Below are positions 3,551 to 17,036 of a stretch of 64,000 bases of DNA, piece after piece (the first letter of the stretch is position 1; each line of letters begins with the position of its first letter). A program made the position numbers and the translations under genes. The DNA lies in IMG/VR virus record IMGVR_UViG_3300045988_176357, positions 1-64,000 of that record; one strand, 5' to 3'. The notes below the pieces were generated by a model, which did not search any database, had not been told where the DNA came from, and worked only from the letters and a program-made list of their open reading frames with translations. This DNA is from a virus.

Positions 3551-4465
3551 GTGCGAATTCCTAAGAATAAACCTATAATAGGGTATAAGGCATTCACAAA
3601 AGACTTGCAGTGTCGCGGGTATCAGTTTGCGATCGGTAAAGAATACCACCATAAAGGTCCTATACAGCTGTGTGCCAAAGGTTTCCACTTCTGCTCATCA
3701 GTAGATAAAGTTTTCGATTTTGCTCCGTATGAACTGAATCCTCAAACAACAAGGGTATGCTCGGTCTTAGCCTGGGGAAACATGCAAGAAGACACTAGGT
3801 CAGTAAAATACGTAGCTTCCAATATCCGTGTCATCAGAGAGTTGTCGATACAGCAGATATTGTCAGCTGCAAATTTCAGTGGCAGCAATTATGGCCGGTA
3901 CAATAGCGGTTCGTTCAATTACGGCAACTATAATACAGGTCGTGAAAACCTTGGCGACGGGAATTGTGGGGTAGGTAATTACGGCAACAATAATTATGGC
4001 AGCTTTAATTGGGGCAACGGTAACAGCGGCAACCATAATTTAGGGAACCATAACACAGGTTGCTATAATTATGCCAATTTCTGTGCAGGTACCTTATGTA
4101 CAGTATCCCATTCACCTTCTACATATATGTTCAACAGGCCTTTAACACTTGATGATGACCTCCGGATGCAAAGATACGGTTTCCCGGCGTTTTTCTGTTA
4201 TGTAAAACCTGTAATTGTTATCGATCAGCGAGATGTTGCAAAGTATAGAGGGTACATCAAAATTGACGACTACACTGAAGCTTTTGATGACCTAAGCATG
4301 TTGCGTACTGTGTCTTGGGAATCCTTGTGGCGGTTTGCACTTGCGAAAGCCAAGACTGAAAGAACCTGGAAAAAGCAACTTGAACACCTGGTTAATTTGC
4401 CTAACTTCAGTTATGCAGTCTTCGAAAGTATTACAGGTATCAGTAAACAGCAAATTCTAGAATAA
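3551..4465 (+). CDS. repeat protein with YadA-head-like N(Y/N)G repeats
   Basis: Intact ORF. Central SGSNYGRYNSGSFNYGNYNTG..GNYGNNNYGSFNWGNGNSGNHNLGNHNTGCYNY repeat array. GTG start inferred. Confidence 0.55.
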   Translation: MRIPKNKPIIGYKAFTKDLQCRGYQFAIGKEYHHKGPIQLCAKGFHFCSSVDKVFDFAPYELNPQTTRVCSVLAWGNMQEDTRSVKYVASNIRVIRELSIQQILSAANFSGSNYGRYNSGSFNYGNYNTGRENLGDGNCGVGNYGNNNYGSFNWGNGNSGNHNLGNHNTGCYNYANFCAGTLCTVSHSPSTYMFNRPLTLDDDLRMQRYGFPAFFCYVKPVIVIDQRDVAKYRGYIKIDDYTEAFDDLSMLRTVSWESLWRFALAKAKTERTWKKQLEHLVNLPNFSYAVFESITGISKQQILE

Positions 4466-7770: not shown

Positions 7771-9159
7771 GTGGCAAATTTAGCAACAATACAAAAGATA
7801 GCGAAAGTACGTGAGATCGACTCCACCAAGCGTGACATATGTGAATTGCGGTTCGAGGATTCCCTGTGGCATGTCGTAGGACAAAAGAACACATATAGTA
7901 TCGGGCAGCGTGTCGTCTTTTTCGCTCCTGGCAGTGTGATTCCAAAGGACACGGAAGCTTATAAGCACTTATGTGACTTTGTACGCAGTAACGCGAAAGG
8001 AATGGAAGTCACAGACGACTGCATTCATGTACACGCCTCGTCTGTAGGCATCAAGCATAAGACACACGGTCTGGTGCTTCCGCTTTCCTTGTTCCCTGAG
8101 CTGAAGAAGATGCCTGTTCGGTCAGATGTCACAGATCGGATCGGTGTTATTTCAGAGCGAGCGCTTAACACGAACGTAATTTGTGCCTCGCCTGATCTCG
8201 TTAAGCTGCCTCAGCCTGACTGGATACCTGCACGCAAGTTTGTCGACTTACGTGATCGTCCGGAAATGTTCGGCAGGTGCCAGCACTCGCGTTTCTATGG
8301 CGAGCTTATGGTCGACGGCAGCATTCCTGTTGCCGTGTACTGTGTAAGCGACAAATATGATGCGGATCGGTTTGGCGTCTGTGTCTTCGGCAACAAGATC
8401 AAGCGCCCAAGGTATTCGCAGGCAGAGATTAAGCGACTTCTGTATCAGCAGCCAAAAAAAGAACGGGGCTGTTTGCTGTCCCTGTGGGAATTGGCTGCGC
8501 ACTGCTGTCAAAGTCTGTGGCACTGGGCTACACATACCGATCAGGAGCTGCAGAAAGAACGGGACGAACAACAGCAGGAAGTGGACGATCTGGAACTTAT
8601 GCTGTTTGAGCGCAACGATCTGTGGAACACAATTGAGATCGAGAACATTGAACCAGCATTGAGCGAGTGGCAGCGCCGTACAGGGCGCAGCATAGTAGTC
8701 TTCTTCGAGTGGGTAGGACCTGACATACAAGGTAACCCGGAACGATATCCAGACCACAGACTGTATGCCAGTGATGTGTACGACTTGGATGGACAGAAGT
8801 GGCTGCTGCCCAAAGAACGTGAACTGTTCCTCGACGGTATCAGCAAACGGATACGCCAGGTAGTCAAGTGCTACCATGACTATCCCTTTGCAGGCAGCAG
8901 TGTTGACTCGACAATAGGTCTTGTAGCGGATATCTGCAATAACCGCAACACAGGGAAAAAGGGCATAATATTCAAGAGCTCGCAGGAACCTTATATGACT
9001 TTCAAGGTGCTCAGCGATCTGTACGGCAAGAAAACCAAAACGAGACTCAGCAAGGCAGCAACAGCCAATGACTACTTTGCTGCGCAGGAACGAAAGAGAA
9101 AGGAAAAGCAGGAAAGGTATCAAAAAGCGTATCCGCAGGCGAGACAGCCTGCAATGTGA
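7771..9159 (+). CDS. hypothetical protein (462 aa)
   Basis: Intact ORF with RBS. Lys/Glu-rich C-terminus. Ends with TGA exactly where the IStron-like element begins. Confidence 0.6.
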   Translation: MANLATIQKIAKVREIDSTKRDICELRFEDSLWHVVGQKNTYSIGQRVVFFAPGSVIPKDTEAYKHLCDFVRSNAKGMEVTDDCIHVHASSVGIKHKTHGLVLPLSLFPELKKMPVRSDVTDRIGVISERALNTNVICASPDLVKLPQPDWIPARKFVDLRDRPEMFGRCQHSRFYGELMVDGSIPVAVYCVSDKYDADRFGVCVFGNKIKRPRYSQAEIKRLLYQQPKKERGCLLSLWELAAHCCQSLWHWATHTDQELQKERDEQQQEVDDLELMLFERNDLWNTIEIENIEPALSEWQRRTGRSIVVFFEWVGPDIQGNPERYPDHRLYASDVYDLDGQKWLLPKERELFLDGISKRIRQVVKCYHDYPFAGSSVDSTIGLVADICNNRNTGKKGIIFKSSQEPYMTFKVLSDLYGKKTKTRLSKAATANDYFAAQERKRKEKQERYQKAYPQARQPAM

Positions 9160-9502
9160 TGCGCTTAAAGGTACCTTCACACCGCGAGGTGTGTCGAATA
9201 AGAAAGTGAATTGCTGGGACACCTTAACGGGTAATGCCGAAGGCAATCAGCAGCCGAGCTTATGGATGCCCGGACCGGGTGCCATAGGAAGGTTCATCGA
9301 CTATCCCGTAATGGGAGTACCCGAGCAGCCTTGCAGCGATAGCAGCAGAAGCAAGGGGAAGCACTCTGGCTCAGGAATGAGTCAATGATATAGTCAGTGC
9401 CTTGTGGAAACACAAGGAGTGGTCAGGAGTGACACCCTGAAACCTGGCAAGGTTTGGTACACCTTGCTGAACAGAACCATGGTAGTTAACACATCGACAA
9501 TG
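9160..9502 (+). ncRNA. group I intron moiety of the IStron-like element
   Basis: 9170-9420 is a near copy (point substitutions only) of nrdD intron 2230-2460, including R (ggttcatcgactatccc) and S (aatgatatagtcagtg) elements. The 3' part is diverged but shares aacctggc..gaacagaacc..acatc.aca. Confidence 0.65.
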
Positions 9503-9571
9503 AAATTGCGAACAATTACTTGAACTTTTAATATACATGCGTATATTATATGCGTACAAACAAGAGGTTCC

Positions 9572-10702
9572 ATGATAGCAAGCAGAGCACACAAGATAAA
9601 ACTCATGCCGACGCCTGAGCAGCAGGAGAAACTCCGCAGGAGATTTCTCCAAGGACAGGCGGTAAGGCACTTGTGCATCGAGTGGAGCTGTGAAATGTAC
9701 GCAGCCTGGAAACAGGACCCTGCGAACAATGCTTACCCATCATATGAAGCGATGGATAAGCGGTACACAAAGGAGAAGCCCGAGGAGGGCAACCTCCTTC
9801 CAAGGTGTTCAGCGCAGCGTAAGGTGCGCGACACCTGGAAGGCAGTGGAAAACCACATCAAGCACCCTGATAAGTACGCATGTCCGGATTACACCAAGAA
9901 GCGTGATGTACATGAGTACACGCTTTATGTGAACAATCAAGCGGCAGAAGTGGGCACAGATCACGGTAAGCCTTATGTTCACTTTCCAAAGCTCGGACTT
10001 ATTCGGCTCGCCGAGGAGTTCCGCTTCAAAGGTGCACGCATAATGTCGTACACCTTTTCGTGGGATTGTGTGGACATGTATGTGTCCATACAAGCGCAAG
10101 TTGAGGTTACTCCGATGTGCACCAACGACTCCACAGTTGGAGTCGATGTGGGTCTCAAGCACATTGCGGTCGCCTCAGATGGCACCACACTCGACTACCC
10201 GAAGGCGTACAAGAAGGCGCAGAAGCGTGTACGCGCGGAGCAGCGTAAGCTGCAGCGCAAAGTTCAAGACAGCAACAATTACTGGAAGCAGTACAGGCGT
10301 CTCAAAAAGGCGTACAAGAGAAAGGCGAACGTTATTAACGACGCCTTACATAAGTACACCACACGGCTATGCAAGACGCACAGCACAGTCGTCACAGAGA
10401 ACCTCAGTATTGCAGACCTTATCAAGACGTCCGAGAAGTGGATGCGAAGAGGCTTCGCCTTGTCCCAGATGAAGCGACTGATTCAGCTGCTTCAGTACAA
10501 GGCTGCCATCTACCGGCAGGTAGAACGATTCTTCGCGAGCAGCAAAACTTGTTCCCGCTGCGGCTACAAGAACAATGCGCTCACACTTGCGGATCGTACT
10601 TATGTGTGCCCCGAATGCGGCCTCCAGATAGACCGTGACCTCAATGCGGCGCACAATACACGCAATTTCATTGTAGGGTCGGTCAGACCCGATCTCCGGT
10701 AA
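9572..10702 (+). CDS. tnpB: IS200/IS605-family TnpB (RuvC-like RNA-guided nuclease, OrfB)
   Basis: 376-aa ORF. C-terminal Zn-finger and RuvC-III region CSRCGYKNNALTLADRTYVCPECGLQIDRDLNAAHN. Upstream RBS aagagg. Confidence 0.85.
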   Translation: MIASRAHKIKLMPTPEQQEKLRRRFLQGQAVRHLCIEWSCEMYAAWKQDPANNAYPSYEAMDKRYTKEKPEEGNLLPRCSAQRKVRDTWKAVENHIKHPDKYACPDYTKKRDVHEYTLYVNNQAAEVGTDHGKPYVHFPKLGLIRLAEEFRFKGARIMSYTFSWDCVDMYVSIQAQVEVTPMCTNDSTVGVDVGLKHIAVASDGTTLDYPKAYKKAQKRVRAEQRKLQRKVQDSNNYWKQYRRLKKAYKRKANVINDALHKYTTRLCKTHSTVVTENLSIADLIKTSEKWMRRGFALSQMKRLIQLLQYKAAIYRQVERFFASSKTCSRCGYKNNALTLADRTYVCPECGLQIDRDLNAAHNTRNFIVGSVRPDLR

Positions 10703-10738
10703 CGGAGGTAGCTCTTCCCTCTTTGAGGGTGAGAAGAT

Positions 10739-11035
10739 ATGCGGTACCTCCCCGGTACCGACTATCATGACAGTATGATAACAGTCGTATGTCCTAAGTG
10801 CAAAAGAGAGAATACGATGTGCGTATGTATGTCCAATGCCGAATGCTATGTACCCATTCTTGGAATCCAGGATGACGGTACTGTTGAATACGGCTGTACT
10901 GATATCAACGAGGGCGATAACGTCGCCTACGAATGCAGTGAATGCGGCTACAGACTTCGTATCAAACCCGATGCCTTTGACGACAAGTTTGTGGCATGGG
11001 CAAAGAAGCAGCAACAGAAAAGGGAAAAGAAATGA
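10739..11035 (+). CDS. small Zn-ribbon protein
   Basis: Intact ORF with CPKC..CSECGY motifs. Confidence 0.5.
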   Translation: MRYLPGTDYHDSMITVVCPKCKRENTMCVCMSNAECYVPILGIQDDGTVEYGCTDINEGDNVAYECSECGYRLRIKPDAFDDKFVAWAKKQQQKREKK

Positions 11036-14117: not shown

Positions 14118-14581
14118 ATGTTGCTGTTTTCAAGACATATGATGCCGCAGTAGCATCAGCTTTGGTTGCACTCTTCATTCTTTTAGCTTTGCTTGCTATA
14201 TGGTTTCTCACTAACATAATGAGTTCCGGCAGCACAATTATGTCAACGAAAACTATTATTACACTGATGTGTCCTGTATGCGCAATATGCGTACTGGATG
14301 CCTTACCTTCTTCCTATACGATATGCAGCTCACTGTACATTACTGAAGTTTCGAGAGTGTCTCCAAATGAACAGACTCTTGTCAAGCTCATACGTGTGGC
14401 AAAGGTGCTGAAATATAAGAAAGGAGTGAGTACACACTCAGCTGAGTATAGCAAGCGCTTTGCTACAGACTTTCCCGGATATGAAAAATACCTGCAGGAA
14501 AGCGCCGAAACAGCTAAAAACAGCGCATATTTTTGGCATAATAAAGTGAAGGAGGATTTAGACTGCTCAACATGTGGTTAA
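14105..14581 (+). CDS. membrane protein; its last 17 codons are duplicated at 20765
   Basis: Intact ORF with two or three TM helices. C-terminus ..TAKNSAYFWHNKVKEDLDCSTCG. Confidence 0.55.
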   Translation: MWAVNVAVFKTYDAAVASALVALFILLALLAIWFLTNIMSSGSTIMSTKTIITLMCPVCAICVLDALPSSYTICSSLYITEVSRVSPNEQTLVKLIRVAKVLKYKKGVSTHSAEYSKRFATDFPGYEKYLQESAETAKNSAYFWHNKVKEDLDCSTCG

Positions 14582-14600
14582 GCAGGATCCTCCGTAACTT
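14523..14600 (+). repeat. direct repeat copy 1 (35 nt identical plus flanking hairpin), paralogous to 20765-20840
   Basis: gcgcatatttttggcataataaagtgaaggaggat, then an inverted-repeat hairpin ggaggat..atcctcc. Confidence 0.6.
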
Positions 14601-14621
14601 ATTAACAGAAAGGTTCACACT

Positions 14622-14861
14622 ATGAACAGTTCTGAGTGCGCCAAGTGCGCAAACGAAAAGGCTTGCTGTTAGCACGCTGACAGTGAAGTCAAAAAGCAGC
14701 TGGAAGATCTGAACAAGAAAATGGAAAAGCTTCAAAGTGGGCTTTTCCACACAGAACTCTGGCTGTCTTATTATAAATATACCACATTCGTGTTATCCTT
14801 CGGGATTGTCACGTATGTGGTATTGAAGTTGTTCTTTAGTTAATAAAGAACACGTCCTGAG
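14622..14861 (+). CDS. small coiled-coil plus TM protein whose frame contains TAG codons
   Basis: ATG with RBS aaagg. MNSSECAKCANEKACC-TAG-HADSEVKKQLEDL..FVLSFGIVTYV.. Closed by TGA only if TAG is read through. Architecture matches the ORF at 20862. Confidence 0.3.
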
Positions 14862-14878
14862 CACGACGTTAAACTGCC
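14855..14878 (+). repeat. 24-nt direct repeat, copy 1 (gtcctgagcacgacgttaaactgc)
   Basis: Exact or 1-mismatch copies at 14855, 14940 and 15899. Confidence 0.7.
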
Positions 14879-14939
14879 TATTCTCCGGGTGCCCCCTATA
14901 ACGGGGCTCGATAGGCACACATCCGTGCCGCCCGGAGTG
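14879..14939 (+). ncRNA. 61-nt element with predicted three-way-junction fold between direct repeats 1 and 2
   Basis: ctccgggtg / cgcccggag closing stem, with internal hairpins gccccctataacggggc and ggcacacatccgtgcc. Confidence 0.3.
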
Positions 14940-14963
14940 TCCTGAGCAAGACGTTAAACTGCT
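14940..14963 (+). repeat. 24-nt direct repeat, copy 2
   Basis: gtcctgagcaagacgttaaactgc (1 mismatch). Confidence 0.7.
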
Positions 14964-15898
14964 CACATTTTGATTTTTACCTAAGTCCTTGCAACTCAGA
15001 TACTTGCACGTAGTTAAGGACGCATATGCGAAAGCATATCAGAGTCTGAGAGATCCCGACCGTGGTCCCTGGTAGGTCACTCAAAGGGACAAGCGGCCGC
15101 CTCAGGGCGGGGAAGCAATAATTTCATTAACAAAACAACAGTAACAACAAAATCTACGGAGCTTTTACCATGACGTAGTACATTTAGATTGATATCAAGC
15201 ATGTCAGTCATGCCCAGTATGACCTCTGCCAAAGGTCCGTGCCGGTGCGTATCACCGGAAGCTATCTAGGGTTCTCGGGGAGACAACGGAGTTGGCCGCC
15301 AACTCGCCCTTGTGGGTGCCATTCCCACAGCCGCAGCACGTTGGCATAATGTGACTGCAAGTGCACGGACTGGTGAAGCTTCCAAGAAGGAGGCTAGCCA
15401 TCGTCGGGCGTTATGATACCTGGGTCATGACGTCGGTAGCTTACGCGCAAGCGTACCAGGACTTCTTATGAAGGAATATCGGAATGAAGCAGGCTTATAA
15501 CTAACAATTATATTGACTGTGGAATTTCATTCGGGTGAACTCTTGATGAGTTCTCGAACACCGGAACAGTTAAGTTACATGGGCATAGGCAAAGCAAGCT
15601 CATATAACCAATGACTGTATGGCTGCGGACTGCTGTAAGGCAGGTGTGCAGCAAGTTCGGTCAGCAGCACCTTACGCTGTTAAAACGACAAGCAAAATGT
15701 TTGTAAAAAGGGCAGCCTGCAGTAACAGGTTTCATGCGCTTGATCTTGCGTGCCCTTAAAGATCTTTGGAAGACGAGCCAGCCCGGACATCGCGGTGTCT
15801 GCAGTAATCTTCCATGCAATCCCCAATCCTTCGGGAAAGGGTTTCTGGAATCCTACGGGGTTCCAGTTTTCTCTCCATTCAGCGCACCAGTTGCGCGC
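14964..15898 (+). ncRNA. ORF-free 935-nt region with many stem-forming segments: candidate large structured ncRNA (family unassigned)
   Basis: No ORF of 60 codons or more on either strand. Many strong local inverted repeats. Bounded by 24-nt direct repeats and lies about 700 nt upstream of a tRNA. Confidence 0.35.
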
Positions 15899-15922
15899 GT
15901 CCTGAGCACGACGTTAAACTGC
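15899..15922 (+). repeat. 24-nt direct repeat, copy 3
   Basis: gtcctgagcacgacgttaaactgc. Confidence 0.7.
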
Positions 15923-16232
15923 TCTTTTTATGTATTCATGTCAGTGCATTTTACAGAGTGCATTGAGATGACTACATAATGTAGTCAACTTAAAACGAAA
16001 GGAGATTCATATGAACCAGAAAACAAACCAGGATCAGGTTGTGTATTGCCTGATGAGGAAAAATCTCGATACACGAGAGACCGATATCCGTATGGTTGTC
16101 GGTACACGCAAAGCCGCCGATAAATGGCTTCAACGCCAGGCGGAGCCGCCATATGCTATCGAGGATCGACAGAACAGACAGGTAATCTGCAGAGGTTTCC
16201 TGTATTACATGGAACAGAGAAAGGTACGATAA

Positions 16233-16450
16233 TGAAATTTATCAGTATACTTCTGTTTGTCTCTTTATGGGCTTTGGTGCTGTTATCTTGTGTACGTTCT
16301 GTCAAGAGCTCCACTGAATGTACAGAACAGAGATGTGCAGAACAGAAAGCTGCAGATGCTCAAAAGAAATATGAGACGACTATGTTTTGGATCCCTGATG
16401 GGAAAGGCAACATACGTCCTCAATTTATCGTAACAGAGAAAGCGCGGTGA
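16233..16450 (+). CDS. small putative lipoprotein
   Basis: MKFISILLFVSLWALVLLSC: signal peptide plus lipobox-like Cys. RBS agaaagg. Confidence 0.45.
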
Positions 16451-16604
16451 TCAATGTTCACTGTAAGCCTTTTCTGCGCTCACAGCATTGTGTATATGGC
16501 ACTGACTATGGTCTGTGCGTATACGCTCCTGTGGGCAATAGATTTGCTTACAAGATAAGTAAGCAGTAGTATATGTGCAGTACTTCTGCTGTACATATAC
16601 ACAT

Positions 16605-16682
16605 GGGACCGTAGCTTAGTCGGTTAGCAGCTGCTGACTCATACTCAGCCGGCCGCAGGTTCGAGCCCTGCCGGTCCCACCA
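16605..16682 (+). tRNA. tRNA-Met (anticodon CAT; elongator Met or Ile-lysidine type)
   Basis: Cloverleaf: acceptor GGGACCG/CGGTCCC, D-arm GCTT..AGC, anticodon stem GCTGA/TCAGC with loop CTCATAC, T-arm GCAGG TTCGAGC CCTGC. Encoded CCA. G1-C72 argues against an initiator. Confidence 0.85.
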
Positions 16683-16727
16683 TTCAACCGCACGCAACGT
16701 GCAAATCAGTACAACAAGGAGTATATA

Positions 16728-16994
16728 ATGAAAGCCTATGTAAAAGTGAAATACTCATCCATAAAATTCCCTCAAAAAGGATCTATGAGGATTCTTGTGA
16801 GAGGGACTTGGTATCTTGTGCCAAGAAAAGAACTTCATCCTGCAGAGTATGAGGAGATGCTGAGACTCAGAAGAATGAAGCTTCCGGCAGGGGAAGCCGA
16901 AAGTAAGTTCTCCAGCTGGGGCATGACAATCACTGTCAGCGCCCGTTGGAAAGACTTGCAGGAAATCCCCTACAGAGAAGTAATCTTCGACTGA
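16728..16994 (+). CDS. hypothetical protein
   Basis: Intact ORF with RBS aaggag. Followed by a strong terminator. Confidence 0.5.
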   Translation: MKAYVKVKYSSIKFPQKGSMRILVRGTWYLVPRKELHPAEYEEMLRLRRMKLPAGEAESKFSSWGMTITVSARWKDLQEIPYREVIFD

Positions 16995-17036
16995 CAGGAT
17001 CATCTGACCTGTTACTTGAGAAGATCGCCAAATAAT

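What the first reader, a model, noticed from the sequence alone, without database searches (positions are those of the whole stretch)
14855..15922. An ORF-free, apparently structured region of about 1 kb framed by three 24-nt direct repeats, next to a tRNA
Between the standard-code genes and the tRNA there is a stretch with no ORF of 60 codons or more on either strand. It has balanced GC and is rich in strong local hairpins (for example ggtccctggtagg..cc, ggccgcctcagggcgg, ccggtgcgtatcaccgg, ggttggccgccaactcgcc). It is bounded by exact 24-nt direct repeats (GTCCTGAGCACGACGTTAAACTGC) at 14855, 14940 and 15899. The first two repeats enclose a 61-nt element that folds into a three-way junction. 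Large ornate ncRNAs in phages (the GOLLD and ROOL classes) lie next to tRNA genes, so this is a candidate of that kind, but no family assignment can be made from memory. Alternatives are a replication origin or a pac/att-type site.
Basis: seen in the sequence. Interest (0 to 1): 0.7.

Follow-up and report, generated by a model that had tools for sequence, protein, structure and literature searches.

The report
Roadblock-type pseudoknots framing a phage RNA
The three "repeats" are copies of a tiny RNA pseudoknot found in many bacteriophages; it closely matches the plant-virus "coremin" motif that blocks RNA-degrading enzymes, and here it brackets a conserved, structured, roughly 930-base non-coding RNA that matches no known family.

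Summary
The repeats are real, at 14854, 14939 and 15899; the middle copy has one mismatch. They are not local framing repeats. The same 24-mer occurs in more than 118 unrelated IMG/VR phage contigs, 135 GenBank phage records and 30 genome contigs, always with unrelated flanks. Natural variants show compensatory changes in 7 of 9 pairs, which defines a 27-nt H-type pseudoknot. Neither it nor the large RNA matches any Rfam 15 family.

Its stem, first loop base and 3' segment (GUC/GAC, C, UUAAACU[G/A]C) match the plant-virus coremin Xrn1-resistant RNA. The positions invariant in phages are the ones mutagenesis showed to be essential in coremin. I found no paper linking coremin to phages.

Between copies 2 and 3 lies a 933-nt ORF-poor stretch. 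It is 89-99% identical in related gut-phage contigs whose flanking DNA is 82-93% identical. It folds better on the + strand. In one relative it is interrupted by a group I intron plus TnpB element in the same orientation.

Best reading: tandem coremin-type roadblocks protect a novel large phage ncRNA from 5'-to-3' decay. The mechanism is inferred by analogy and has not been tested. The RNA's own function is unknown.

The parts
14853..14879 (+). Pseudoknot copy 1 (CGUCCUGAGCACGACGUUAAACUGCCU). P1 is intact. P2 is weakened (G6.U26, A7/C25 mismatch). It starts 7 nt after the TAATAA stops of the upstream ORF, which ends at 14843.
   Evidence: 39.2 bits, E=2e-7. L126 carries a compensatory A1-U14 in this copy.
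14880..14937 (+). Small three-way-junction element between copies 1 and 2: closing stem CUCCGGG/CCCGGAG plus two hairpins. It may act as the 'second hairpin' (hp2) of copy 1, making copies 1 and 2 a tandem roadblock, rather than being a separate RNA gene.
   Evidence: Fold. Conserved in relatives with few changes. The hp2 reading is inference from the coremin papers.
14938..14964 (+). Pseudoknot copy 2 (UGUCCUGAGCAAGACGUUAAACUGCUC), with full P1 and P2.
   Evidence: 44.7 bits, E=9e-9. Present at the same place in all relatives.
14965..15897 (+). Large conserved structured non-coding RNA candidate of 933 nt. Its near-invariant core is at about 15190-15440. It contains GNRA-capped hairpins, for example at 15026-15041 (GAAA loop) and 15442-15456 (GCAA loop; that hairpin is deleted in L160).
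   Evidence: No Rfam family.
15845..15876 (+). Terminator-like hairpin plus U-rich tail inside the 3' part of the RNA; a possible 3' end. In L123, L127 and L160 this stretch is replaced by a different sequence that is 13 nt shorter.
15882..15896 (+). Short hairpin GCGCA-CCAGU-UGCGC ending 2 nt before copy 3. A hairpin abutting the 5' side of the pseudoknot is seen at many other loci.
   Evidence: Sequence; predicted pairs; other loci.
15898..15924 (+). Pseudoknot copy 3 (CGUCCUGAGCACGACGUUAAACUGCUC), followed directly by UUUUU and then a long hairpin (about 15929-15992) and the SD-led 73-aa gene at 16011.
   Evidence: (46.2 bits, E=3.9e-9).

Best explanation
The locus is an RNA module. Three copies of a 27-nt H-type pseudoknot sit on the + strand: P1 = N-GUC/GAC-N, L1 = CU, P2 = GAGCA/UGCUC, one bulged variable base, L3 = UUAAAC. 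Two of them are in tandem, separated by a small three-way junction, directly 5' of a conserved, highly structured RNA of about 930 nt. The third follows that RNA and leads the next gene.

The pseudoknot is the phage counterpart of the plant-virus coremin exoribonuclease-resistant RNA. I infer that it works the same way, as a compact, protein-independent, directional mechanical roadblock to enzymes travelling 5' to 3' along RNA. Candidates in bacteria are RNase J, 5'-end-dependent scanning by RNase E, Rho and ribosomes. RNA downstream of the knot would then survive when the upstream part of the transcript is degraded.

Here that would make the large RNA accumulate as a stable non-coding species starting at copy 1 or copy 2, much as flaviviral sfRNA and BNYVV ncRNA3 are made. 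It would end at the terminator-like hairpin (15845-15876) or at copy 3 plus its U-run.

Shown: the repeat family, its pseudoknot fold, its detailed match to coremin, and the conservation and strand-specific structure of the large RNA.
Inferred: exonuclease stalling in bacteria, and the route by which the large RNA is made.
Unknown: what the large RNA does.
For: (1) Self-contained and widespread. It is in 135 GenBank phage records from Staphylococcus, cyanobacterial, Mycobacterium, Arthrobacter, Bacillus, Lactobacillus, Paracoccus, Moorella and Vibrio phages. It is in only 30 contigs of 185,579 species genomes, nearly all of them MAG contigs.

(2) Pseudoknot fold. Across 68 distinct variants, 96.4% of cells are paired and 7 of 9 pairs show compensatory changes. 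The covariation score is 0.375 against 0.18 in shuffles (0 of 500 reach it). Slid controls give 22-51% paired. G.U wobbles place the structure on the + strand RNA. Further compensations appear in Staphylococcus (GAC/GUC) and Vibrio (CUC/GAG) phages and in L126 (AUC/GAU).

(3) Match to coremin GUCCGAAGACGUUAAACUAC. The 4-bp hp1, the first loop base C and the UUAAACU[G/A]C segment are the same. Phage-invariant positions C4, A18, A19, C21 and U22, and near-invariant A20, correspond to coremin C5, A15-A17, C18 and U19, which could not be mutated without loss of function. The variable U16U17 correspond to the tolerant U13U14. The coremin authors hypothesised a BWYV-like H-type pseudoknot and isolated a Watson-Crick-paired variant; the phage family is a natural, covariation-supported version of that. 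The canonical 4-nt-loop coremin is itself present in at least 120 IMG/VR contigs, mostly 17-60 kb phage contigs.

(4) Placement fits a structure that must stay folded and sits 5' of RNA units.
- Upstream ORFs end no closer than about 6 nt, with the mode exactly at 6 (46 of 156).
- Start codons peak 20-30 nt downstream.
- The motif lies 4-5 nt before tRNAs in L017 and Nostoc phage NMeng1, 4 nt before a DUF2800 RNA and 3 nt before a hammerhead.

(5) The large RNA.
- The same layout is kept in 10 relatives.
- It is 93-99% identical among the closer relatives, and 96.4% in L126, where the flanks are 89.6-91.6%.
- In L160 it is 89% overall with a near-invariant core.
- The alignment fold gives -297.5 on the + strand against -250.5 on the - strand. 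Variable pairs are kept in 29 of 44 against 18 of 40. There are 3 compensatory pairs. Variable columns make up 8.8% of paired and 16.8% of unpaired columns.
- A group I intron plus TnpB element is inserted in it in the + orientation in L128.

(6) No hit in phages of Escherichia, Salmonella, Klebsiella or Pseudomonas, and none in 5,426 complete E. coli genomes. From my own knowledge those hosts lack RNase J, whereas most hosts that do appear in the list have it.
Against: - No experiment or transcript data were available. Stalling of any bacterial enzyme by this motif is pure analogy.
- The phage loop (CUGAGCAN) breaks the coremin YG... loop rule at its second base, and no conserved second hairpin follows the motif. 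It therefore fails two of coremin's defining features.
- The coremin authors showed that ordinary frameshifting pseudoknots of similar size do not stall Xrn1, so a pseudoknot alone does not prove resistance.
- T-runs are commoner just downstream (36 of 226) than upstream (7 of 226) of the phage pseudoknot, and copy 3 is followed by UUUUU. Some copies may therefore act as terminators or 3'-end structures instead.
- Vibrio phages carry the motif although, from my own knowledge, Vibrio probably lacks RNase J.
- Covariation in the large RNA is thin (3 compensatory pairs in 7 close relatives), and part of the predicted fold is contradicted by L160.
- The high conservation could partly reflect recent horizontal spread of a cassette.
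Confidence: 0.5

Rival explanations
1. The pseudoknot is a 3'-end or boundary module rather than a 5' roadblock. It would be a compact intrinsic-terminator hairpin or a barrier to 3'-to-5' exonucleases, placed just after stop codons. Secondarily, it would be a short homology at which gene and RNA cassettes are swapped between phages, as proposed for PeSL regulatory cassettes of T4-type phages (recalled from memory). On this reading the large RNA is simply one cassette bounded by such modules.
For: - The upstream stop codon sits 6 nt before the motif in 46 of 156 cases.
- A U-run directly follows P2 in about 10% of copies, and T5+ runs are commoner downstream than upstream. Copy 3 is followed by UUUUU.
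- Indels between relatives begin or end at motif copies: a roughly 205-nt insert after copy 3 flanked by a duplicated TAAACTGCTC, an extra motif-plus-ORF cassette in L009, and extra cassettes in L126 and L160.
Against: - Only a minority of copies have a U-run. Most are followed 20-30 nt later by a start codon or directly by a tRNA, ribozyme or ncRNA.
- A generic terminator or stabiliser would not need loop nucleotides that are invariant across phyla and coincide with coremin-essential positions.
- Canonical coremin copies in phages lie after terminator-like T-runs, not before them.
- The cassette-boundary role is compatible with the main explanation and does not exclude it.
Confidence: 0.22
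2. The pseudoknot is, or is part of, a small self-cleaving ribozyme or a nuclease recognition site that cuts polycistronic transcripts and releases the 61-nt and 933-nt RNAs.
For: - It occurs in ribozyme-rich phage neighbourhoods: pistol in L005, twister in L029, and a hammerhead 3 nt downstream in L117.
- Its hairpin-loop-to-downstream pseudoknot with an A-rich linker resembles the P1/pseudoknot half of pistol.
- Sequence conservation across host phyla is typical of ribozyme cores.
Against: - At 27 nt it is far smaller than any known natural self-cleaver and has no conserved substrate helix.
- No Rfam ribozyme model matches it even at E<=10.
- The coremin relative is known to act without cleavage.
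Confidence: 0.08
3. The ORF-free kilobase is not a functional RNA. It would be a decayed gene, or inert spacer or cassette DNA, that looks conserved only because it spread recently among closely related phages. The repeats would be unrelated regulatory elements.
For: - All homologs found are at least 89% identical and come from one phage lineage.
- Only 3 compensatory pairs were found.
- The region tolerates a TnpB/intron insertion and a 12-nt and a 13-nt deletion.
Against: - It is more conserved than the adjacent coding DNA, including in the most divergent relative, and has a near-invariant 250-nt core.
- No reading frame survives under any code.
- Fold energy and substitution pattern are asymmetric between strands.
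- Substitutions avoid paired columns.
- The inserted element is of a self-splicing type and lies in the sense orientation.
Confidence: 0.1
4. The region is a DNA-level element, that is a replication origin or a pac, cos or att site, and the repeats are protein-binding sites.
For: The region is non-coding and contains direct repeats.
Against: - The repeat shows RNA-type covariation with G.U pairs on one strand only.
- It is co-oriented with flanking genes and spaced relative to stop and start codons.
- The same repeat occurs in hundreds of unrelated phages at intergenic sites.
- There are no iterons, AT-rich unwinding region or GC-skew switch at the locus.
Confidence: 0.03

Closest known systems
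Coremin motif (xrRNA_C) of plant and other RNA viruses, and its Watson-Crick variant xrRNA_WCC (Dilweg et al. 2019, PMC6546385; 2023, PMC10520033 and PMC10321173)
   Same: - A 4-bp first hairpin built on GUC/GAC with a C-G loop-closing pair.
- The first loop base is C.
- A conserved 3' segment (G)UUAAACU[A/G]C.
- The same pattern of tolerant (UU) and essential (AAA, C, U) positions.
- A proposed BWYV-like H-type pseudoknot between loop and spacer.
- Occurrence in tandem, in intergenic regions and around stop codons.
- Loops of up to 8 nt are tolerated.

   Different: - It is found in DNA phages of bacteria, not RNA viruses of eukaryotes. Xrn1 is absent there, so a different enzyme must be the target.
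- The 8-nt loop CUGAGCAN has U, not G, at its second position.
- A 5-bp canonical Watson-Crick P2 is proven by covariation, in place of the non-canonical interaction proposed for coremin.
- There is no conserved second hairpin.
- Function is untested.
Flaviviral xrRNAs and sfRNA, and BNYVV ncRNA3 biogenesis
   Same: The proposed logic is the same: one or two roadblock structures at the 5' edge of a non-coding RNA, so that 5'-to-3' decay of a longer transcript leaves a stable ncRNA. Tandem arrangement is also shared. The paper list includes a study of flaviviral xrRNAs that mentions RNase J. That they also halt bacterial RNase J1 is my recollection of that paper; I did not read it here.
   Different: The fold is different: flaviviral xrRNAs are ring-like three-way junctions of about 70 nt. 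The phage ncRNA is far larger (about 930 nt) and unrelated in sequence. Nothing has been shown experimentally.
Luteoviral -1 frameshifting pseudoknots (BWYV, PLRV)
   Same: They have the same size class (26-28 nt) and topology: a short L1 beginning with C, one bulged junction base, and an A-rich L3 able to line the minor groove of stem 1. In both, a codon being decoded lies 6 nt upstream: the slippery site in luteoviruses, the stop codon here.
   Different: There is no slippery heptamer upstream and no long in-frame or -1 extension downstream (by inspection). BWYV has a 5-bp and a 3-bp stem, whereas the phage motif has 4 and 5. The BWYV pseudoknot does not stall Xrn1.
GOLLD, ROOL and other large 'ornate' phage-associated RNAs
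   Same: The 933-nt element is large, ORF-free, GC-balanced, rich in hairpins and GNRA loops, phage-borne, and lies in a region with a tRNA and RNA-metabolism genes.
   Different: It matches neither the GOLLD nor the ROOL covariance model, nor any other Rfam model. It is known so far from one gut-phage lineage only.
PeSL mobile regulatory cassettes of T4-type phages (recalled from memory, not checked here)
   Same: A short conserved regulatory motif recurs at the boundaries of small variable gene cassettes, and indels between relatives begin and end at the motif.
   Different: PeSLs are a promoter plus stem-loop specific to one phage group. This motif is a covarying RNA pseudoknot shared across phages of many host phyla.

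Membership tests
Coremin xrRNA (xrRNA_C) | First hairpin hp1 of 3-4 bp (GUC/GAC core) with a pyrimidine-purine loop-closing pair | tested here: met
   All three window copies have N-GUC/GAC-N. Across 68 variants C3-G12 is kept in 67, G1-C14 in 66, and U2-A13 switches to A-U in 12.
Coremin xrRNA (xrRNA_C) | Loop lp1 follows YGAD (4 nt) or YGNNAD (6 nt); natural 7-8 nt loops start with CG | tested here: not met
   The phage loop is C-U-G-A-G-C-A-N. The first base (Y=C) and the penultimate A fit, but the second base is U (or C), not G.
Coremin xrRNA (xrRNA_C) | Conserved spacer UUAAACUAC, with A15-A17, C18, U19 and A20 essential and U13U14 tolerant | tested here: met
   The phage segment is UUAAAC-U-G/A-C. 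A18, A19, C21 and U22 are invariant, A20 is kept in at least 90%, and U16U17 vary. Position 23 is G or A and covaries with position 9, so it is used differently from coremin A20.
Coremin xrRNA (xrRNA_C) | A second hairpin (hp2) directly after the spacer, conserved in structure only | tested here: not met
   Sequences after the motif are mostly unstructured C/A-rich leaders, U-runs, tRNAs or other RNAs. In the window, only copy 1 (three-way junction) and copy 3 (hairpin about 5 nt later) have one.
Coremin xrRNA (xrRNA_C) | Stalls a 5'-to-3' exoribonuclease just 5' of hp1 in vitro | not testable with these tools
   Needs an Xrn1 or RNase J degradation assay.
Watson-Crick coremin variant (xrRNA_WCC) | Coremin hp1 and spacer, with canonical antiparallel pairing between loop and the 3' spacer | tested here: met
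   P2 GAGCA/UGCUC shows 4 of 5 pairs with compensatory changes. The described xrRNA_WCC has a 4-nt loop and 2-3 pairs; the phage form has an 8-nt loop and 5 pairs.
GOLLD / ROOL / HEARO / OLE / RNase P / tmRNA / group I and II introns (Rfam 15) | Match to the family covariance model | tested here: not met
   There is no hit in 14500-16800 other than the tRNA, even at E<=10 with permissive filters. Whole-window gathering-threshold hits are only the tRNA and a group I intron at 9121-9417.
Small self-cleaving ribozymes (hammerhead, twister, twister-sister, pistol, hatchet, HDV-like) | Match to the family model, including the catalytic core and cleavage-site helix | tested here: not met
   No ribozyme model hits the three copies. 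The pistol consensus shares only the P1/pseudoknot topology.
preQ1-I-type riboswitch pseudoknots | Match to the Rfam model, a ligand-specifying L2 cytosine, and association with queuosine genes | tested here: not met
   No Rfam hit. The junction is a single variable base. Downstream genes and RNAs are unrelated to one another.
Intrinsic (Rho-independent) terminator | GC-rich hairpin immediately followed by a U-tract | tested here: inconclusive
   P2 is followed directly by at least 4 U in about 17 of 175 copies, including copy 3; most copies lack this. A separate terminator-like hairpin lies at 15845-15876.
CRISPR-like mini-array, or att/direct repeats of an integrated element | Regular repeat-spacer spacing, or repeats private to the element and its target | tested here: not met
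   Spacings are 85 and 960 nt. The same repeat occurs singly in hundreds of unrelated phages.

The most novel reading that the evidence does not exclude
Coremin-type exoribonuclease-resistant pseudoknots are not confined to RNA viruses of eukaryotes. They would be a common device of DNA bacteriophages across many host phyla, and the first natural xrRNA class in prokaryotic systems. Phages would use them to shield mRNA leaders, tRNAs and ribozymes, and in this gut phage to generate an sfRNA-like stable RNA of about 930 nt belonging to a new family of large structured RNAs. The phage covariation would also settle the unsolved coremin fold as a BWYV-like H-type pseudoknot.
Probability: 0.4. Interest if true: 0.9.

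Novelty: new variant of a known kind. Interest (0 to 1): 0.8.

Why it matters
If the inference holds, a 20-27-nt RNA device known only from plant, fungal and insect RNA viruses also operates in bacteriophages. That would give bacteria-infecting viruses a protein-free way to set RNA 5' ends and half-lives.

- It would make directly testable whether bacterial 5'-to-3' enzymes (RNase J, scanning RNase E, Rho) can be stalled by a natural structure.
- The phage variants supply the natural covariation that the coremin field lacks; no structure has been solved, and the pseudoknot is described as 'yet unelucidated'.
- It would offer a tiny portable RNA-stabilising part for bacterial synthetic biology.
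- It would add an uncharacterised, highly conserved large RNA of about 930 nt from abundant human-gut phages to the short list of large phage RNAs with unknown function.

Tried and rejected
- Rfam at gathering and at E<=10: nothing for the repeats or the large RNA.
- DNA similarity of 14700-16100 to GenBank phages: no match.
- Reading the kilobase as a recoded gene: no long frame with TAG, TGA or TAA read through. PHROGs gave no function for the neighbouring genes.
- Literal sequence search of the literature with 10-13-mers: only unrelated primers. Shorter 8-mers gave the coremin lead.
- Antisense to the 16S rRNA 5' end: I noticed partial complementarity by eye, but rejected it because the compensatory variants keep internal pairing and destroy that complementarity.
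- Promoter reading: -10-like hexamers upstream are confined to one related group of gut contigs. The BPROM 'promoter' annotated over the motif in Staphylococcus phage B166 is a prediction only.
- Programmed frameshift or readthrough signal: there are no slippery heptamers, and in-frame extensions stop within about 14 codons (by inspection).
- Distant homologs of the large RNA: nhmmer against 1.29 Mb of fetched loci found only the same lineage. Searching with the 73-aa downstream protein gave only close relatives. Searching IMG/VR with the 158-aa protein gave only one contig.
- One preprint on coevolutionary mining of non-coding elements could not be opened.
- The pistol paper gave no sequence-level help.
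Full report
**What is in the window.** The 24-mer GTCCTGAGCA[C/A]GACGTTAAACTGC occurs three times, at 14854, 14939 (one mismatch) and 15899, all on the + strand and nowhere else in the 64 kb. None is expected by chance. Copies 1 and 2 enclose a 61-nt stretch that folds as a closing stem with two hairpins. Copies 2 and 3 enclose 933 nt. No convincing ORF covers the region under the standard code or with TAG, TGA or TAA read through. The one 81-codon ATG ORF (15734-15979) runs through copy 3 and is broken by 1-nt and 13-nt indels in relatives. tRNA-Met lies about 680 nt further on. Rfam 15 gives nothing here except that tRNA, even at E<=10.

**The repeats are a widespread, self-contained element.**
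The flanks on both sides are unrelated from contig to contig.
- The 185,579 species genomes hold it in only 30 contigs. Nearly all are MAG contigs, assigned to very different phyla.
- GenBank phages hold it in 135 records: 83 Staphylococcus phietaviruses, 27 Vibrio phages, cyanophages, and Mycobacterium, Arthrobacter, Bacillus, Lactobacillus, Paracoccus and Moorella phages. None are from Escherichia, Salmonella, Klebsiella or Pseudomonas.
- The 5,426 complete E. coli genomes hold none.

**It is an RNA pseudoknot.** Near-matches within the fetched loci show textbook compensation:
- GUC...GAC switches to GAC...GUC.
- GAGCA...UGCUC switches to GGACA/UGUCC, GGUCA/UGACC, AAGCA/UGCUU, AGGCA/UGCCU and GAGUA/UACUC.
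- The base before G1 covaries with position 15.

I scored the structure ((((..[[[[[.))))......]]]]] on 68 distinct variants. It gives 96.4% paired cells and 7 of 9 pairs with double changes. The covariation score is 0.375 against 0.18 in shuffles (0 of 500 reach it), and sliding the partners gives 22-51% pairing. G.U wobbles put the structure on the sense strand. Further independent compensations appear in Staphylococcus (GAC/GUC), Vibrio (CUC/GAG) and L126 (AUC/GAU) copies. The result is a 27-nt H-type pseudoknot:
- P1 of 4 bp
- L1 = CU
- P2 of 5 bp
- one bulged variable base
- L3 = UUAAAC

**Placement.**
- The motif is co-oriented with its neighbours.
- For 156 copies with a real upstream ORF, the stop-to-motif spacer has a hard floor. 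There are four cases below 6 nt, 46 at exactly 6, and then a tail.
- Start codons peak 20-30 nt after the motif.
- The structure therefore sits just outside the footprint of both the terminating and the initiating ribosome.
- It also lies 4-5 nt before tRNAs in L017 and Nostoc phage NMeng1, 4 nt before a DUF2800 RNA and 3 nt before a hammerhead.
- Pistol and twister ribozymes occur in the same loci.
- About 10% of copies, including copy 3 here, are followed directly by a U-run.

**Closest known relative.** An 8-mer literature search led to the coremin motif GUCCGAAGACGUUAAACUAC. This is the Xrn1-resistant RNA of BNYVV and many other RNA viruses.
- Shared features: the 4-bp hp1 on GUC/GAC, the first loop base C, and the UUAAACU[A/G]C segment.
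- Mutagenesis of coremin found U13U14 tolerant. A15-A17, C18, U19 and the loop C5 were essential. In the phage alignment the equivalent UU varies. A18, A19, C21, U22 and C4 are invariant, and A20 is nearly so.
- The coremin authors proposed an unsolved BWYV-like pseudoknot. They also isolated a Watson-Crick-paired variant that stalls Xrn1.
- Coremin stalls Xrn1 one nucleotide before hp1, blocks scanning ribosomes and stimulates -1 frameshifting.
- The phage motif differs in its 8-nt loop, which has U where coremin has G at the second base. It has a 5-bp canonical P2 and no conserved second hairpin. I therefore file it as a new variant, not a member.
- The canonical 4-nt-loop coremin itself turned up in at least 120 IMG/VR contigs. 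Most are 17-60 kb phage contigs, where it follows terminator-like T-runs.
- The three coremin papers never mention phages or bacteria. Searches combining xrRNA or exoribonuclease resistance with phage found nothing relevant.

**The large RNA.** Relatives were reached through the 158-aa upstream protein and their contigs, which are human-gut metagenome contigs of about 120-150 kb.
- All keep the order pseudoknot, 61 nt, pseudoknot, about 935 nt, pseudoknot.
- The 933 nt are 93-99% identical among them. In L126 the RNA is 96.4% identical while the adjacent DNA is 89.6-91.6%.
- In L160 the RNA is 89% identical with an almost invariant core at about 15190-15440, while the flanks are 82-93%.
- The single sequence folds with z=-3.9 on the + strand and -1.9 on the - strand.
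- The alignment fold gives -297.5 against -250.5 kcal/mol. Variable pairs are kept in 29 of 44 against 18 of 40. There are three compensatory pairs, including a GAAA-capped hairpin. Substitutions fall in 8.8% of paired and 16.8% of unpaired columns.
- In L128 the RNA is split at window position 15571/15572 by a 1.6-kb element. It consists of a group I intron (44.5 bits, E=2e-8, below the gathering score of 50) followed by a TnpB gene, in the + orientation. The rest of the RNA continues after it. The same kind of element sits in a coding gene of the window at 9121-10773.
- No homolog outside this lineage was found, so covariation support remains thin. One predicted helix is contradicted by L160.

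**How it most likely works.** Shown so far: the motif family, its fold, its detailed match to coremin, and the conservation and strand bias of the large RNA. The rest is inferred by analogy. I propose that the pseudoknot is a directional roadblock to 5'-to-3' machines. Copies 1 and 2, with the three-way junction serving as the first copy's downstream hairpin, would form a tandem block at the 5' edge of the large RNA. Decay of the upstream message would then leave a stable RNA of about 1 kb. That RNA would end at the terminator-like hairpin (15845-15876) or at copy 3 plus its U-run. Copy 3 would do the same for the next gene.

The host range fits loosely. Phages of E. coli-type hosts, which from my own knowledge lack RNase J, do not carry the motif, and phages of Firmicutes, Actinobacteria and cyanobacteria do. 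Vibrio phages are an exception.

The main competitor treats the motif as a terminator, a 3'-end structure or a cassette-boundary module. Evidence for it includes U-runs downstream of some copies and indels bounded by motif copies. These include a roughly 205-nt insert after copy 3 flanked by a duplicated TAAACTGCTC. The two readings are not mutually exclusive. What the large RNA does is unknown.

**Verdict.** I found no description of it in Rfam or in the searchable literature. Here it brackets a new large conserved RNA.

Noticed in passing
window 9121-10773: An element of about 1.65 kb that relatives lack. It consists of a group I intron (Rfam 54.1 bits, 9121-9417) followed by a 376-aa ORF (9572-10702). 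That ORF was not scanned here; it is presumed to be TnpB because the homologous elements in L128 and L122 carry OrfB_IS605/Cas12f-like ORFs. The layout is IStron-like. It is inserted near the 3' end of the RNA-ligase-like gene (7771-9159) and ends in ...ATCATGACAG. Homologous copies sit inside the large RNA in L128 and after the 134-aa gene in L129.
   Followed up: partly
whole window: Coverage by stop-to-stop ORFs of at least 150 codons is only 57% under the standard code. It rises to about 90% if TAG (or TGA) is read through. The ORF just upstream of copy 1 (14623-14843) has an in-frame TAG, and relatives encode a class-I Glu/Gln-type tRNA synthetase nearby. Part of the genome therefore looks stop-codon recoded; which codon is involved was not resolved.
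   Followed up: partly
L009 rc 2668-2900; L121, L123, L126 after copy 3 (window equivalent 15924): A non-coding insert of about 205 nt directly after pseudoknot copy 3, flanked by a duplicated TAAACTGCTC (the 3' half of the motif). It is present in some relatives and absent in the window, L120 and L127. L160 has a different insert followed by an extra intact motif copy.
   Followed up: partly
L009 rc 4006-4320 (window equivalent about 17016-17031); L126 5969-6461: Extra cassettes, each consisting of a pseudoknot copy plus a small ORF, are present in relatives and absent from the window. Gene content varies in units bounded by the motif.
   Followed up: no
L166-L285 (IMG/VR), e.g. L168, L175, L193, L212: The canonical plant-virus-type coremin sequence GTCCGAAGAC[N]TTAAACTAC occurs in at least 120 IMG/VR contigs. 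In 93 of the 121 matches, which are mostly in 17-60 kb gut contigs, it follows a terminator-like GGTGCTTTTTTATT. There it is followed by repeated GGGAGACAC/GAGAGACAC units. A few small contigs look like plant-virus RNAs (BNYVV RNA3-sized, cucumovirus-like 3' ends).
   Followed up: partly
L161, L165 (Staphylococcus phages StauST398-3, B166): 83 Staphylococcus phage records carry a GAC/GUC variant of the pseudoknot between the head-morphogenesis gene and the next gene. In phage B166 the spot is annotated as a BPROM-predicted promoter.
   Followed up: partly
L162 (Vibrio phage D456 and 26 related records): A CUC/GAG variant of the pseudoknot lies on the strand opposite to the small annotated hypothetical genes and overlaps one of them by 10 nt. 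Either those gene calls are wrong or the motif is antisense here.
   Followed up: no
many loci, e.g. L004, L018, L032, L040, L051; window 15882-15896: A short GC-rich hairpin often ends 1-8 nt before the pseudoknot. It may stack on P1 or be part of a larger unit. This was not analysed statistically.
   Followed up: no
window 15929-15992: A long imperfect hairpin between copy 3 and the Shine-Dalgarno sequence of the 73-aa gene drew weak, sub-threshold microRNA-model hits. These are certainly spurious as family assignments. Its role is unknown (leader structure, or a second hairpin for copy 3).
   Followed up: no
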